DNA from: a virus
Length of the DNA stretch: 5,430 nt
Virus record (IMG/VR): IMGVR_UViG_3300045988_005096
Coordinates: 1 to 5,430 of that record
Reading direction: 5' to 3' (one strand)
Part shown: one piece after another, positions 3,800-5,008 of the stretch
Position numbering within the stretch: the first letter of the stretch is position 1
Layout: the number at the start of each line of letters is the position of its first letter
The notes under the pieces: model-generated
Seen by the model: the letters and a program-made list of their open reading frames with translations, nothing else
The model's database searches: none
What the model was told of the DNA's origin: nothing
Position numbers and translations under genes: made by a program

Positions 3800-3810
3800 C
3801 ACTTTGGTGT

Positions 3811-3857
3811 CACTCAGCCAAGTAACTATCAAGTATAGACTTGGCTGAGTGTTTTTT
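3811..3857 (+). terminator. Rho-independent terminator downstream of VP4
   Basis: Perfect 13-bp stem: cactcagccaagt (3811-3823) pairs with acttggctgagtg (3839-3851). The loop is 15 nt. T6 follows directly (3852-3857), 12 nt after the VP4 stop. Confidence 0.85.
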
Positions 3858-3868
3858 ATTTCATATTG

Positions 3869-3909
3869 ACATATGCACGCGCGCACGTAATCGCGCACAC
3901 GCGCACATG
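3869..3909. repeat. Two alternating purine/pyrimidine (CG/CA) tracts carrying a GCACRCGCGCAC direct repeat
   Basis: 3869-3889 (21 nt) and 3892-3909 (18 nt) alternate R/Y without exception. gcacgcgcgcac (3875-3886) and gcacacgcgcac (3895-3906) match 11/12. This is a GC island inside an AT-rich spacer. Confidence 0.8.
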
Positions 3910-3910
3910 A

Positions 3911-3943
3911 TATTATTATTATTTGTTGTAGTCGTAGTAGTAG
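3911..3943. repeat. Triplet-periodic low-complexity block (TNN)x11
   Basis: Reads tat tat tat tat ttg ttg tag tcg tag tag tag, with T at every third position for 33 nt. Confidence 0.8.
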
Positions 3944-3954
3944 GGAGTGTTGAA

Positions 3955-4038
3955 ATGTTGAATACTATGAATTTTTATCCTTGGAACGATATTTTATGGA
4001 TTATTTTGATGTTAATACTTTTGTGGATAACTTGTTGA
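3955..4038 (+). CDS. Speculative 27-aa hydrophobic mini-ORF (MLNTMNFYPWNDILWIILMLILLWITC)
   Basis: ATG 3955 is preceded by GGGAG (3943-3947) at 7-nt spacing. The C-terminal 15-18 residues are hydrophobic. However, it lies in T-rich non-coding DNA that overlaps the repeat array, between the terminator and the main promoter. Confidence 0.15.
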   Translation: MLNTMNFYPWNDILWIILMLILLWITC

Positions 4039-4062
4039 ATTGTTGAAAGTGTAGCAATATGC

Positions 4063-4080
4063 ACAAAACCATTTGTACAA
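4063..4080. repeat. 18-nt direct repeat, copy 1 (ACAAAACCATTTGTACAA)
   Basis: Matches 4289-4306 at 17/18. Contains the perfect palindrome TTGTACAA (4073-4080). Confidence 0.85.
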
Positions 4081-4165
4081 CTTTTCGTGGAAAACCTGTT
4101 GAAAATGTTGAAAACGTGGAAAATTCGAATTAAAGGCCGTCCGGCGAGCGAAACCAGAAAGTCAC

Positions 4166-4205
4166 GTCATGCTCTTCGCACGGCGCACCGCGCCTACCGC
4201 ATGAC
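4166..4205 (+). other. GC-rich nested hairpin in the non-coding region
   Basis: Outer stem: gtcatgc (4166-4172) pairs with gcatgac (4199-4205). Inner stem: ggcgc (4182-4186) pairs with gcgcc (4190-4194), with a 3-nt loop. It sits in a locally GC-rich segment (about 4135-4205) flanked by AT-rich DNA. Confidence 0.5.
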
Positions 4206-4226
4206 CTCTTAAAGAAAAAAGAAAGC

Positions 4227-4255
4227 TTGACAAACCCTCTGCCTTATGATATAAC
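4227..4255 (+). promoter_or_regulatory. Near-consensus sigma70-type promoter with extended -10
   Basis: -35 TTGACA (4227-4232), a 17-nt spacer, then TGaTATAAC (TG 4247-4248, hexamer 4250-4255). An A-rich UP-like tract aaagaaaaaagaaagc lies just upstream (4211-4226). It points into the small-ORF/VP3/VP1 gene chain. Confidence 0.7.
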
Positions 4256-4288
4256 AAAAATAGTTAAACAGCACAGAAGTGCTATTTT

Positions 4289-4306
4289 ACAAAACCATTT
4301 ATACAA
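4289..4306. repeat. 18-nt direct repeat, copy 2 (ACAAAACCATTTATACAA)
   Basis: Matches 4063-4080 at 17/18. Lies in the predicted 5' leader, 12 nt upstream of the SD at 4319-4327. Confidence 0.85.
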
Positions 4307-4334
4307 AATAACTTTTAGAAAGAGGTGAACCGCT

Positions 4335-4439
4335 CTGACTCTCAAGGAAATTGACGCGCTGTTTAACAACATTCGCAAAATCTTGGCTATGCTGGACAAG
4401 ATTTATCACGCAGTAGAGGGCAACAAACCCGAGGGGTGA
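4335..4439 (+). CDS. Hypothetical 34-aa ORF with a putative CTG start ((M)TLKEIDALFNNIRKILAMLDKIYHAVEGNKPEG)
   Basis: Strong SD AAGAGGTGA (4319-4327) lies 7 nt before CTG 4335. An in-frame stop at 4326-4328 excludes an earlier start. The peptide looks like a real amphipathic helix. Its TGA 4437-4439 overlaps GTG 4436. In-frame TTG 4383 and ATG 4389 are alternative, shorter starts. Confidence 0.3.
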   Translation: MTLKEIDALFNNIRKILAMLDKIYHAVEGNKPEG

Positions 4440-4666: not shown

Positions 4667-4769
4667 AGTCCGCAAGTCCAAAGACGCAAAAATTTACAAC
4701 AAGACCGCAAAAAAGACCAAGGCAATCAACCTTGGCAGCGGCGCAATGCGAGGAGGTATTCGACTGTGA
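4650..4769 (+). CDS. Small highly basic DNA-binding/packaging peptide (gokushovirus ORF8 / phiX174 J-like), 39 aa
   Basis: MAKRSKVRKSKDAKIYNKTAKKTKAINLGSGAMRGGIRL carries 13 Lys/Arg in 39 residues. From memory, the C-terminal MRGGIRL-type ending recurs in gokushovirus small basic proteins. GAAGGGA lies 8 nt upstream of ATG 4650. The longer 4578 start in the ORF track has no support. Confidence 0.7.
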   Translation: MAKRSKVRKSKDAKIYNKTAKKTKAINLGSGAMRGGIRL

Positions 4770-5008
4770 GCACCAACGTATACGGCATCTTCGACAACTG
4801 TGTGATGGGCTACATCACCATCTTCACCGAGCGGGAAGACAAGGTGGCAGAGCGCAACTTCAAAATTGCGCTCAACGACGAACGCAACATTATGAGCAAA
4901 TCGCCGAGCGACTACCGGTTGGTACGTCTGGCAAAGTTCGACGAAAAAACCGGCGAATTTGTCGAGAATAAGGAGAACATCTTCGATGGCATTTCGCTCT
5001 GTAAGTAA
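4766..5008 (+). CDS. VP5-like small non-structural protein, 80 aa, GTG start
   Basis: AGGAGG (4751-4756) lies 9 nt before GTG 4766, which overlaps the preceding TGA (4767-4769). The pattern VYGIFD...AERNF..ALND....SKSPSDYRLVRLAKFDEKTGEF resembles the conserved gokushovirus VP5/non-structural family (.Y.I.D...A.R.F...ND....P.DY.L..L..FD..TG). Confidence 0.75.
   Translation: MSTNVYGIFDNCVMGYITIFTEREDKVAERNFKIALNDERNIMSKSPSDYRLVRLAKFDEKTGEFVENKENIFDGISLCK

What the first reader, a model, noticed from the sequence alone, without database searches (positions are those of the whole stretch)
3800..4334. Non-coding control region of about 535 nt (10% of a 5.3-kb genome) with modular architecture
Microviruses are normally almost gapless, yet no credible ORF lies on either strand between the VP4 stop (3799) and the next SD-led ORF (4335). 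The region is not featureless filler. In order it contains a terminator (3811-3857), Z-prone GC tracts (3869-3909) and a phiX-ori-like TGATATTA core (3908-3915). Next come a triplet-periodic AT-rich block (3911-3943), the DnaA-box-like array (3948-4123), a GC-rich nested hairpin (4166-4205) and a UP element with a consensus promoter (4211-4255). It ends in a leader carrying a repeat copy (4289-4306). DnaA boxes beside AT-rich, easily melted DNA and a strong promoter is the layout of a bacterial or plasmid origin. That is unexpected for a phage thought to replicate by Rep-nicked rolling circle plus host priming.
Basis: partly seen in the sequence, partly recalled or inferred. Interest (0 to 1): 0.65.

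Follow-up and report, generated by a model that had tools for sequence, protein, structure and literature searches.

The report
Bacterial-style replication origin inside a microvirus
The 535-base gap in this small single-stranded-DNA gut phage holds a compact copy of the DNA-opening module that bacteria use to start chromosome replication, so the phage probably recruits the host initiator DnaA, which has not been described for this virus family.

Summary
The gap 3800-4334 is real. It is 100% identical in five independent human-gut assemblies and has no conserved ORF, apart from an ambiguous 27-codon one.

Its core (3908-4123) has the layout of a bacterial oriC basal unwinding system. In order it has an AT-rich stretch, seven triplets TTG TTG TAG TCG TAG TAG TAG (DnaA-trios), a 4-nt spacer, a tandem DnaA-box pair, and two further clusters of same-orientation boxes. 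One box is a perfect TGTGGATAA.

The same cassette occurs in at least 145 gokushovirus genomes. Its geometry (4-nt spacer, 8-9-nt box pitch) matches 120 bacterial genome loci carrying the same motif. At least 49 of these have dnaA signatures alongside, and one was confirmed by Pfam as the dnaA-dnaN gap. The phage repeat TGTTGAAAA is also the dominant repeat in that confirmed origin, from a Ruminococcus.

In 13 IMG/VR genomes and three GenBank genomes the cassette is inverted relative to the genes. It therefore works as a double-stranded cassette and is not the Rep nick site.

The phiX-like "TGATATTA core" is chance. The terminator, promoter and GC hairpin are confirmed, but the hairpin is an exchangeable accessory.

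Most likely function: host-DnaA-dependent opening and replication of the replicative form. No paper in the searched library reports this.

The parts
3811..3861 (+). Intrinsic terminator after VP4: stem 3811-3823 / 3839-3851, then a T-run
   Evidence: 13-nt perfect inverted repeat. RNA fold dG -23.2 kcal/mol, z -5.1, followed by UUUUUUAUUU.
3873..3909 (.). GC-rich alternating purine/pyrimidine tract (two ~17-nt direct repeats) flanking the AT-rich stretch. Role unknown.
   Evidence: Direct repeat D5. A similar tract within 120 nt 5' of the trios in 78 of 114 relatives, against 13 elsewhere in those genomes. No stable hairpin.
3908..3922 (.). AT-rich stretch in the position of the duplex unwinding element (DUE). 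It contains the chance TGATATTA match.
   Evidence: Sequence. The 25 nt 5' of the trios average 81% A+T across 114 genomes. The same position is AT-rich in the bacterial oriC-type loci.
3923..3943 (+). DnaA-trio array: TTG TTG TAG TCG TAG TAG TAG (5'-TAG-3' = 3'-GAT-5')
   Evidence: With an independent anchor, about 140 of 145 genomes have the block with 2 mismatches or fewer, mostly 165-167 nt from the anchor. Same motif as the C. difficile oriC2 trio and 120 bacterial loci.
3944..3947 (+). 4-nt spacer (GGAG) in the place of the oriC 'GC cluster'
   Evidence: Spacer is 4 nt in 113 of 114 phage cassettes and 113 of 120 bacterial loci.
3948..3964 (+). Trio-proximal tandem box pair TGTTGAAAT / TGTTGAATA. 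Most relatives have TGTGGAAAA-GTTGAAAA here.
   Evidence: Box1-to-box2 pitch is 8 nt in 104 of 114 phages and 8 or 9 nt in bacteria.
4011..4049 (+). Box cluster 2: TGTTAATAC, perfect DnaA box TGTGGATAA (4022-4030), TGTTGAATT, TGTTGAAAG
   Evidence: The perfect box is almost confined to genomes whose proximal pair is the GTTGA type (40 of 68, against 1 of 46).
4086..4123 (+). Box cluster 3: CGTGGAAAA, TGTTGAAAA, TGTTGAAAA, CGTGGAAAA at 9-11-nt pitch
   Evidence: This cluster is conserved in all groups, including those with an inverted cassette.
4163..4207 (+). Conserved GC-rich nested hairpin. An accessory, exchangeable module, possibly a single-strand (complementary-strand) origin.
   Evidence: Nearly invariant in 65 of 114 genomes. 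Absent from 49, including close relatives that carry other GC-rich hairpins. 0 hits in 185k bacterial species genomes, none in plasmids, no Rfam match. Folds.
4211..4255 (+). A-rich tract plus sigma70/sigmaA-type promoter: -35 TTGACA 4227-4232, TG 4247-4248, -10 TATAAC 4250-4255
   Evidence: Sequence. An equivalent promoter in 63 of 101 same-orientation relatives, 49 with TG, against a background of 0.001 per 550 nt. The tool scan missed it because the -10 ends in C.
4262..4334 (+). Leader of the downstream operon: 5' hairpin 4270-4283, second copy of the 18-mer (4289-4306), SD 4322-4328
   Evidence: Fold. 18-mer pair. Not coding: stops in 16 of 29 relatives.
4063..4080 (+). First copy of the 18-mer ACAAAACCATTTGTACAA, in the spacer between box clusters 2 and 3. 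Unexplained.
   Evidence: Fixed at +140 from the trios in 49 genomes, with the second copy in the leader in 28.
3955..4038 (+). Possible 27-aa hydrophobic ORF (MLNTMNFYPWNDILWIILMLILLWITC) overlapping the box array. Found only in the window's clade.
   Evidence: 46 genomes. Third-position changes 90 against 38 and 38. Synonymous fraction 0.39 against 0.16 expected. But 5 of 36 unique sequences have premature stops.
4335..4439 (+). First gene after the gap: conserved 34-aa ORF with a CTG start. This marks the 3' boundary of the non-coding region.
   Evidence: tblastn hits in 113 of 114 genomes. 0 stops in 48 unique sequences and third-position bias. CTG in 32 of 33 with SD AGGAGGTG.

Best explanation
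Window 3908-4123 is a roughly 215-nt cassette that mimics, or was captured from, a host chromosomal origin. It consists of a DUE, DnaA-trios, a 4-nt spacer, a tandem DnaA-box pair, and two further clusters of same-orientation DnaA boxes that would act as a DnaA oligomerisation region.

Proposed mechanism:
1. After the incoming single strand is converted to the double-stranded replicative form, host ATP-DnaA binds the boxes.
2. DnaA grows as a filament onto the TAG-trio strand and melts the adjacent AT-rich stretch.
3. The opened DNA is used to load the host helicase and replisome. The replicative form is then copied like a small oriC minichromosome, and/or the melted DNA gives the HUH nickase VP4 the single-stranded substrate it needs.

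Around the cassette, a terminator (3811-3861) insulates it from VP4 transcription. An exchangeable GC hairpin (4163-4207) and a strong promoter (4227-4255) follow it.

Shown: the sequence architecture, its geometry, its conservation, its occurrence in both orientations, and its match to bacterial oriC. Inferred: DnaA binding, unwinding, and the downstream use. The likely host is a Ruminococcus-like member of the Bacillota, whose oriC uses the same TGTTGAAAA repeat.
For: Definition of the basal unwinding system: (PMC8287927, PMC6669920, PMC7561715).

The C. difficile oriC2 trio, reverse-complemented, reads TCATAGTAGTAATAGTAGTAGGTG. The window reads TAGTCGTAGTAGTAGGGAGTG.

The pattern TAGTAGTAGG-N2-6-TGTGGAWAA hits at least 120 bacterial genomes. 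The context is always AT-rich, (TAG)n, spacer, tandem boxes. dnaA signatures lie 300-1200 nt away (up to about 1,850 nt in a few) in at least 49 of them.

The geometry is the same in phage and bacteria.

Boxes are concentrated in the cassette: TGTGNAWAA 158 times and TGTTGAA 791 times within 200-300 nt of the trios in 114 genomes, near zero elsewhere, and all in one orientation. There are about 9.8 repeats per genome at a pitch of 8, 9, 11 or 12 nt.

In Ruminococcus sp. RGIG7051 the gap between dnaA (Pfam 8e-65) and dnaN holds the same trios plus 12-14 TGTTGAAAA repeats.

The cassette is hit by megablast even where the genes are too diverged to match. VP4 identity across carriers ranges from 33% to 97%.

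The cassette is inverted relative to the genes in 13 of 114 IMG/VR genomes and in GenBank KT264784, KT264801 and KX513876. A double-stranded, self-contained module explains this.

The canonical motif in IMG/VR is found mostly in microvirus-sized contigs, about 57 of 79.

No paper in the searched library links Microviridae with DnaA boxes, trios or oriC.
Against: There is no experimental evidence. DnaA binding and unwinding are inferred from sequence alone.

In the window itself the two trio-proximal boxes are 3 mismatches from TTATCCACA. They pass only if TGTTGAAAA is accepted as a host-specific box, and that rests on a single bacterial origin (L190).

About 21 cassettes contain no exact TGTGGAWAA at all.

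The near-invariance of AAC-TTGTTGTAG goes beyond what degenerate trios need, which suggests an extra, unknown constraint.

The classical gokushoviruses Chp2, SpV4 and phiMH2K lack the cassette, so it is not needed for microvirus replication in general.

The phage keeps an intact HUH Rep, so a DnaA-driven theta mode is not obviously required. The data cannot separate real origin firing from DnaA titration or DnaA sensing.

A weak coding signal (the 27-aa ORF) overlaps part of the array.

The host is unknown. No prophage was found, and the genome-contig scans are exhausted.
Confidence: 0.6

Rival explanations
1. DnaA sink or sensor. The cassette binds DnaA but does not fire as an origin. Many RF copies, each with about 10 boxes, would titrate ATP-DnaA (as datA and DnaA-box clusters do). 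This would block host re-initiation, or couple phage transcription to the host cell-cycle state.
For: Dense same-orientation box arrays. A strong promoter lies about 100 nt downstream in most genomes. The phage already has its own Rep.
Against: Titration or regulation would not need trios at exactly the 4-nt spacing, nor an AT-rich stretch on the correct side. In inverted cassettes the boxes no longer face the promoter, yet the whole module is kept intact.
Confidence: 0.15
2. Complementary-strand origin on the packaged single strand. DnaA, or a DnaA-type ABC primosome, assembles on the viral strand, which carries the TAG trios in most genomes, and primes synthesis of the minus strand.
For: In 101 of 114 genomes the trio strand is the gene (viral) strand. 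The window has an inverted repeat that places the TGTGGATAA box in a potential stem. L003 and L009 have box-containing inverted repeats.
Against: 13 IMG/VR genomes and 3 GenBank genomes carry the trios on the complementary strand. The window's box hairpin is no more stable than shuffles (z 0.0). The + strand of the array holds no complementary TTCAACA copies to make the boxes double-stranded.
Confidence: 0.1
3. The repeats are iterons for a phage-encoded protein, or they are Spo0A boxes, and have nothing to do with DnaA.
For: The commonest repeat, TGTTGAAAA, differs from TTATCCACA at 2 positions and from the Spo0A 7-mer TGTCGAA at 1. Small basic ORFs of unknown function lie downstream.
Against: The same repeat fills a bacterial dnaA-dnaN origin that carries no phage. 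17% of repeats are TGTGGA, including exact consensus boxes. The fourth base is never C, which the Spo0A box requires. The 9-nt units are too short for typical Rep iterons, and no winged-helix Rep is encoded.
Confidence: 0.05
4. The conservation comes from a small protein gene. The 27-aa hydrophobic ORF at 3955-4038, for example a lysis or membrane peptide, would explain it without any replication element.
For: Third-position bias, excess of synonymous changes, and start and stop codons kept in 35 of 36 unique sequences of its clade.
Against: The ORF exists in only about 46 of 114 genomes. 5 of 36 unique sequences have premature stops. The trios, box clusters 1 and 3, and their geometry are conserved well outside the ORF and in clades that lack it.
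Confidence: 0.05

Closest known systems
Bacterial chromosomal origin basal unwinding system (BUS: DnaA-box pair + DnaA-trios + DUE; B. subtilis incC, C. difficile oriC2)
   Same: Same elements in the same order and orientation. Same 4-nt spacer between the last TAG and the first box, same 8-9-nt box pitch, AT-rich stretch beyond the trios, and further distal box clusters.
   Different: It sits in a 5.3-kb ssDNA phage that has its own HUH Rep, and not next to dnaA/dnaN. It is very compact (about 215 nt). Most of its boxes are the TGTTGAAAA variant. It occurs in either orientation and at two genomic positions among relatives.
oriC of Ruminococcus sp. RGIG7051 (locus L190, dnaA-dnaN gap)
   Same: (TAG)n-GGGGC-TGTGGAAAA followed by tandem clusters of TGTTGAAAA at 9-11-nt pitch. 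This is the same repeat and the same style of array as in the phage.
   Different: Longer (about 500 nt), with boxes in both orientations. No extended sequence identity beyond the roughly 40-60-nt BUS core, so it is not a recent direct donor.
Plasmid and phage origins that use DnaA boxes as accessories (P1 oriR, pSC101, F, RK2; own knowledge)
   Same: A mobile replicon recruits host DnaA through consensus boxes placed next to an AT-rich region.
   Different: Those origins are built around 17-22-bp iterons for their own winged-helix Rep, and are not known to carry trios in BUS geometry. Here there is no such Rep or iteron.
phiX174 / G4 / M13 replication signals (gpA ori CAACTTGATATTAATAAC; PriA n' site; G4 primase origin; M13 minus-strand origin; own knowledge)
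   Same: An ssDNA phage with an HUH Rep needs both a nick site and a complementary-strand start. The exchangeable GC hairpin after the array could be the latter.
   Different: Only an 8-nt chance match to the phiX ori. None of these systems uses DnaA. The cassette is not strand-fixed.
Single-strand origins (sso) of rolling-circle plasmids of Bacillota (ssoA/U/T/W; own knowledge)
   Same: The GC-rich hairpin module is cassette-like. It is interchangeable between close relatives and has a fixed orientation relative to the genes.
   Different: No sequence match was tested against sso families. Priming has not been shown. Stability is only modest.

Membership tests
oriC basal unwinding system (BUS) | At least 3 consecutive DnaA-trios (3'-GAT-5', central A) | tested here: met
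   Window 3929-3943 reads TAG TCG TAG TAG TAG, with three contiguous TAG. The block is nearly invariant in about 140 genomes.
oriC basal unwinding system (BUS) | A DnaA box with 2 mismatches or fewer to TTATCCACA (or to a species-specific box) within 0-16 bp of the trios | tested here: inconclusive
   Window: TGTTGAAAT has 3 mismatches to the E. coli consensus but 1 to TGTTGAAAA, the repeat that dominates a Ruminococcus oriC. In 46 of 114 relatives the position holds (T/A/C)GTGGA, usually TGTGGAAAA (1 mismatch; fits TTWTNCACA).
oriC basal unwinding system (BUS) | A second, tandem box next to the first | tested here: met
   Box1-to-box2 start-to-start distance is 8 nt in 104 of 114 phages and 9 nt in 7. 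In bacteria it is 8 nt (34) or 9 nt (51).
oriC basal unwinding system (BUS) | Short (about 4 bp) spacer or GC cluster between box and first trio, with a fixed box orientation | tested here: met
   4 nt in 113 of 114 phage cassettes and 113 of 120 bacterial loci. Boxes read TGTGG 3' of the TAG strand in both.
oriC basal unwinding system (BUS) | AT-rich unwinding element on the far side of the trios | tested here: met
   Window 3908-3922. Mean 81% A+T in the 25 nt 5' of the trios. The most AT-rich 40-nt window of the genome lies in or next to the cassette in 72 of 114.
oriC basal unwinding system (BUS) | ATP-DnaA binding, filament formation on the trio strand, strand separation | not testable with these tools
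   Needs purified DnaA and a footprint or strand-separation assay.
Chromosomal oriC | Located beside dnaA/dnaN on a bacterial chromosome | tested here: not met
   The cassette lies between VP4 and a small phage ORF in a 5.3-kb phage genome. It works like oriC but is not a chromosomal oriC.
phiX174-type Rep (gpA) origin | Conserved nick/recognition sequence on the viral strand in every genome | tested here: not met
   Only TGATATTA (8 nt) matches, at chance level and unconserved. The conserved block is on the non-gene strand in 13 IMG/VR and 3 GenBank genomes. No 10-mer outside the cassette is shared by 75% or more of genomes.
Iteron-type plasmid origin | 17-22-bp iterons bound by a replicon-encoded winged-helix Rep | tested here: not met
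   The repeats are 9-mers that also occur in a bacterial oriC. The only Rep is the HUH-type VP4.
DnaA 'A-site' single-strand initiation hairpin (ABC primosome) | A stable ssDNA hairpin with a DnaA box in its stem, on the packaged strand | tested here: not met
   Window 4008-4082 DNA fold: -6.0 kcal/mol, z 0.0. The cassette orientation is not fixed.
Single-strand origin (sso) of rolling-circle replicons (for hairpin 4163-4207 only) | Structured, orientation-specific, exchangeable element on the displaced strand that primes the complementary strand | tested here: inconclusive
   It has a fixed orientation, and close relatives replace it with other GC-rich hairpins. Folding is only modestly better than shuffles. 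Priming is not testable here.

The most novel reading that the evidence does not exclude
A large clade of gut gokushoviruses has captured a minimal copy of its host's chromosomal origin. It replicates its double-stranded form as a DnaA-controlled minichromosome. This would give these integrase-less microviruses a plasmid-like carrier state that is copied in step with the host cell cycle, with VP4 rolling-circle replication used only to make progeny single strands. The box variant (TGTTGAAAA versus TGTGGAWAA) would then track host DnaA specificity and could be used to predict hosts.
Probability: 0.3. Interest if true: 0.85.

Novelty: new variant of a known kind. Interest (0 to 1): 0.78.

Why it matters
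Microviridae are the textbook case of Rep-nicked rolling-circle replication that does not depend on the host initiator. A conserved, portable oriC-type unwinding module in at least 145 gut gokushoviruses points to a second, DnaA-dependent layer of replication control.

If correct, it would:
- offer a mechanism for the long-term persistence of gut microviruses that have no integrase;
- give a sequence handle on their unknown hosts, through the DnaA-box variant and a match to Ruminococcus-type origins;
- provide a naturally minimised origin of about 215 nt, useful for studying DnaA-trio function and for building replicons in hard-to-manipulate gut Bacillota.

It also shows that bacterial origin modules can be mobilised by viruses.

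Tried and rejected
1. phiX-like Rep origin at TGATATTA. There is a single 8-nt hit, 13 of 200 shuffles match, and it is not conserved.

2. The trio block as the VP4 nick site. Rejected because the block lies on the non-gene strand in 13 IMG/VR and 3 GenBank genomes. A k-mer search for another universally conserved gene-strand motif found none, so the true nick site remains unknown.

3. DnaA-box hairpin 'A-site' priming signal. The window hairpin is no better than shuffles.

4. Non-coding RNA. No Rfam hit at E <= 1.

5. The GC hairpin as a host-derived or attP-like sequence. There are 0 hits in 185k bacterial species genomes and no plasmid match. I also looked by eye for a dif/XerCD-like site around 3895-3925 and saw no convincing match. 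This was not tested formally.

6. Degraded or hidden genes. ORFs 4087-4212 and 4227-4328 are full of stops in relatives. The 65-aa ORF 3841-4038 is broken upstream of codon 39 in most relatives.

7. Spo0A boxes. The fourth base of the repeat is never C.

8. Misassembly. The gap is identical in 5 independent assemblies.

9. A general gokushovirus feature. Chp2, SpV4 and phiMH2K lack it.

10. Prophage or host identification. None of the 120 bacterial loci carries VP1 or VP4, and the scans are exhausted.
Full report
**What the window is.** The 5430 bases are a circular gokushovirus genome of 5331 nt with a 99-nt terminal overlap. All genes are on the + strand:
- VP1, 146-1837
- VP2, 1902-2774
- VP4/Rep, to 3799 (Pfam REP_ORF2-G2P)
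- small ORFs from 4335
- VP5, 4766-5008
- VP3, running across the end of the window

The same genome occurs in five independently assembled human-gut contigs, and its 535-nt gap is 100% identical in all of them. Gene callers place no gene in the gap either. The gap is therefore real.

**Checking the listed modules.**
- The terminator is sound: a 13-bp perfect stem at 3811-3823 / 3839-3851, RNA dG -23.2, z -5.1, then a U-run.
- The GC-rich alternating purine/pyrimidine tract (3873-3909) does not fold (z +1.05). A tract of this kind nevertheless sits within 120 nt 5' of the triplet block in 78 of 114 relatives, against only 13 anywhere else in those genomes.
- TGATATTA (3908-3915) is a single 8-mer that 13 of 200 shuffles also produce. 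It is absent from relatives, so the phiX-like reading fails.
- The promoter TTGACA-17-TATAAC with an upstream TG (4227-4255) is real. An equivalent promoter follows the region in 63 of 101 same-orientation relatives, against a background of 0.001 per 550 nt.
- The 18-mer repeat (4063-4080 / 4289-4306) is real and kept as a pair in 28 genomes. I cannot explain it.

*Coding potential.* ORFs 4087-4212 and 4227-4328 are broken by stops in most relatives and show no codon-position bias. The ORF at 4335-4439 and the next ORF behave as genes. A 27-codon hydrophobic ORF (3955-4038) shows a third-position bias in its own clade, but 5 of 36 unique sequences have premature stops. It stays ambiguous.

**The region is conserved and partly mobile.** BLAST finds the gap in 43 or more GenBank gokushoviruses from human, pig, monkey, dog and mink faeces. 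In several, megablast matches only this region and none of the genes.

An alignment with 11 of these genomes shows three kinds of conserved element:
- an invariant TTGTTGTAGnnGTAGTAGTAGG, preceded by AT-rich DNA;
- many same-orientation GTTGAAA/GTGGAAA repeats;
- a nearly invariant GC hairpin.

**Identification of the core.** The triplets read 5'-TAG-3', which is 3'-GAT-5', the consensus DnaA-trio. The published basal unwinding system (BUS) of bacterial origins is a pair of DnaA boxes, a short spacer (GC cluster), at least three trios with a central A, and then the AT-rich unwinding element. The C. difficile oriC2 trio, reverse-complemented, is TCATAGTAGTAATAGTAGTAGGTG. The window has TAGTCGTAGTAGTAGGGAGTG, and most relatives have GTAGTAGTAGG-GGC-TGTGGAAAA-GTTGAAAA.

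All share the context AT-rich, (TAG)n, spacer, tandem boxes. In at least 49, DnaA protein signatures lie 300-1200 nt away (up to about 1,850 nt in a few) on the opposite strand, as expected for the dnaA-dnaN origin.

The geometry is the same in phage and bacteria. The spacer from the last TAG to the first box is 4 nt in 113 of 120 bacterial loci and 113 of 114 phage cassettes. The box-to-box pitch is 8 or 9 nt in both.

**The box array.** Across 114 microvirus genomes rotated to the trio block:
- TGTGNAWAA occurs 158 times in the 200 nt 3' of the trios.
- TGTTGAA occurs 791 times in the 300 nt 3' of the trios.
- Both are near zero in the remaining roughly 5 kb.
- All copies are in one orientation.

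There are about 9.8 repeats per genome. The consensus is AAaTGT(T/g)GAAAa, and the repeats are arranged in three clusters at a pitch of 8, 9, 11 or 12 nt.

The window has boxes at 3948, 3956, 4011, 4022 (perfect TGTGGATAA), 4033, 4041, 4086, 4097, 4106 and 4115.

The commonest repeat, TGTTGAAAA, is 2 mismatches from the E. coli consensus. However, the dnaA-dnaN gap of Ruminococcus sp. RGIG7051 carries the same trios followed by 12-14 TGTTGAAAA repeats in tandem clusters. Its flanking genes were verified by Pfam (dnaA 8e-65, dnaN). The repeat is therefore a natural origin repeat in at least one Bacillota lineage, which also suggests the kind of host.

The perfect TGTGGATAA box in cluster 2 is almost confined to genomes whose proximal pair is the GTTGA type (40 of 68, against 1 of 46).

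**Orientation.** In 101 of 114 IMG/VR genomes the trio strand is the gene strand, just 3' of VP4. In 13 the whole cassette is inverted relative to the genes:
- Four genomes keep it in the VP4-ORF gap.
- Nine have it between VP2 and VP4.

The annotated GenBank genomes KT264801, KT264784 and KX513876 show the same inversion. Only the DUE-trio-box unit of about 225 nt flips. In the group that keeps the cassette in the VP4-ORF gap, the alternating GC tract stays next to VP4.

By established knowledge of Microviridae, the packaged strand is the gene strand. The cassette therefore cannot be the Rep nick site, and it cannot depend on lying in the packaged single strand. It behaves as a self-contained double-stranded module.

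With an independent anchor in box cluster 3, 145 genomes were recovered. About 140 of them have the trio block with 2 mismatches or fewer, mostly 165-167 nt from the anchor.

The canonical BUS pattern in IMG/VR gives 79 stretches, about 57 of them microvirus-sized contigs. Chp2, SpV4 and phiMH2K lack the cassette.

**The hairpin.** The 4163-4207 element is nearly invariant in 65 of 114 genomes. It is missing from 49, including relatives with 93-95% identical VP4 that carry other GC-rich hairpins at the same place. It has no match in bacterial genomes, plasmids or Rfam. Its stability is modest. It is an accessory, exchangeable and orientation-fixed module. My best guess is a complementary-strand (sso-like) origin, but this is untested.

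**Mechanism.** The most likely explanation (0.6) is that host ATP-DnaA binds the boxes on the replicative form, extends onto the TAG strand, and opens the AT-rich stretch. The opening is then used to load the host replisome, and/or to give VP4 single-stranded DNA. The architecture, geometry, conservation and bacterial counterpart are shown. Binding, opening and the downstream use are inferred.

Rivals:
- a DnaA sink or sensor (0.15);
- a complementary-strand start on the viral strand (0.1), weakened by the inversions and by the lack of a stable box hairpin;
- iterons for a phage protein, or Spo0A boxes (0.05);
- conservation due only to the 27-aa ORF (0.05).

**Novelty.** Full-text searches combining Microviridae or gokushovirus terms with DnaA, DnaA box or oriC, phage with DnaA-trio, bacteriophage with DnaA boxes and oriC-like, and gokushovirus with origin of replication and intergenic, returned nothing whose title or abstract describes this. 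The element belongs to a known kind (the oriC BUS) but sits in a new and unexpected carrier, so I rate it a new variant of a known kind.

Noticed in passing
window 4335-4439: Conserved 34-aa ORF (LTLKEI(D/N)ALFNNIRKILAMLDKIYHAVEGNKPEG) that appears to start at CTG, 7 nt after a strong SD. tblastn finds it in 113 of 114 relatives. CTG is at the start position in 32 of 33 checked. Gene callers miss it.
   Followed up: partly
window 3955-4038: 27-aa hydrophobic ORF overlapping the DnaA-box array, found only in the window's clade. It has a weak coding signal, but 5 of 36 unique sequences have premature stops. It could be a small membrane or lysis peptide, or a by-product of the box sequences.
   Followed up: partly
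window 4063-4080 and 4289-4306: 18-mer ACAAAACCATTT(G/A)TACAA present twice in the same orientation. One copy is fixed in the spacer of the box array. The other is in the mRNA leader just before the SD, and it moves with inserted cargo in relatives. The pair is kept in 28 genomes. Function unknown.
   Followed up: partly
window ~4208-4262; relatives L001, L004, L005, L006, L012, L017, L018; KX513876 1358-1759: The junction after the hairpin and promoter is an insertion hot spot. Relatives carry 76-413 nt or more of extra DNA here. In some it looks like a peptidase M15 (cell-wall hydrolase) gene, annotated as such in KX513876. The window has none.
   Followed up: partly
window 3873-3909: A GC-rich alternating purine/pyrimidine (Z-DNA-prone) tract flanks the AT-rich side of the cassette in 78 of 114 genomes, with only 13 such tracts elsewhere. 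In at least the four inverted genomes that keep the cassette in the VP4-ORF gap, the tract stays next to VP4. Role unknown (barrier to unwinding? absorber of supercoils?).
   Followed up: partly
L190:3613-4983: The DnaA of Ruminococcus sp. RGIG7051, whose origin is full of TGTTGAAAA, has an unusual DNA-binding domain (RKVAIYVV and GGRDHSTIVYS, where RQIAMYL and GGRDHTTVIHA are usual). This may go with an altered box preference.
   Followed up: no
L252/L260/L276, L259, L264, L285; L258/L261/L288 (= Prevotella loci L169/L214): Long IMG/VR contigs (17-160 kb) also carry canonical (TAG)n-spacer-tandem-box motifs, with no DnaA signature within 2.5 kb. Other mobile elements may also carry oriC-type unwinding modules.
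   Followed up: no
L364 (Chlamydia phage Chp2) 2812-2880: The VP3-ORF8 gap has TGTGCAAAAAA twice, 12 nt apart, followed by phased A-tracts. There are no trios, so it is not the same cassette.
   Followed up: no
L026, L035, L038, L043, L053, L055, L056, L059, L065, L072, L075, L083, L105, L109, L113, L118: Exact matches to the trio pattern in large viral contigs lie in low-complexity GTAGTTGTTG-type repeats with no box-like motifs alongside, probably coding. These are chance hits, not cassettes.
   Followed up: partly
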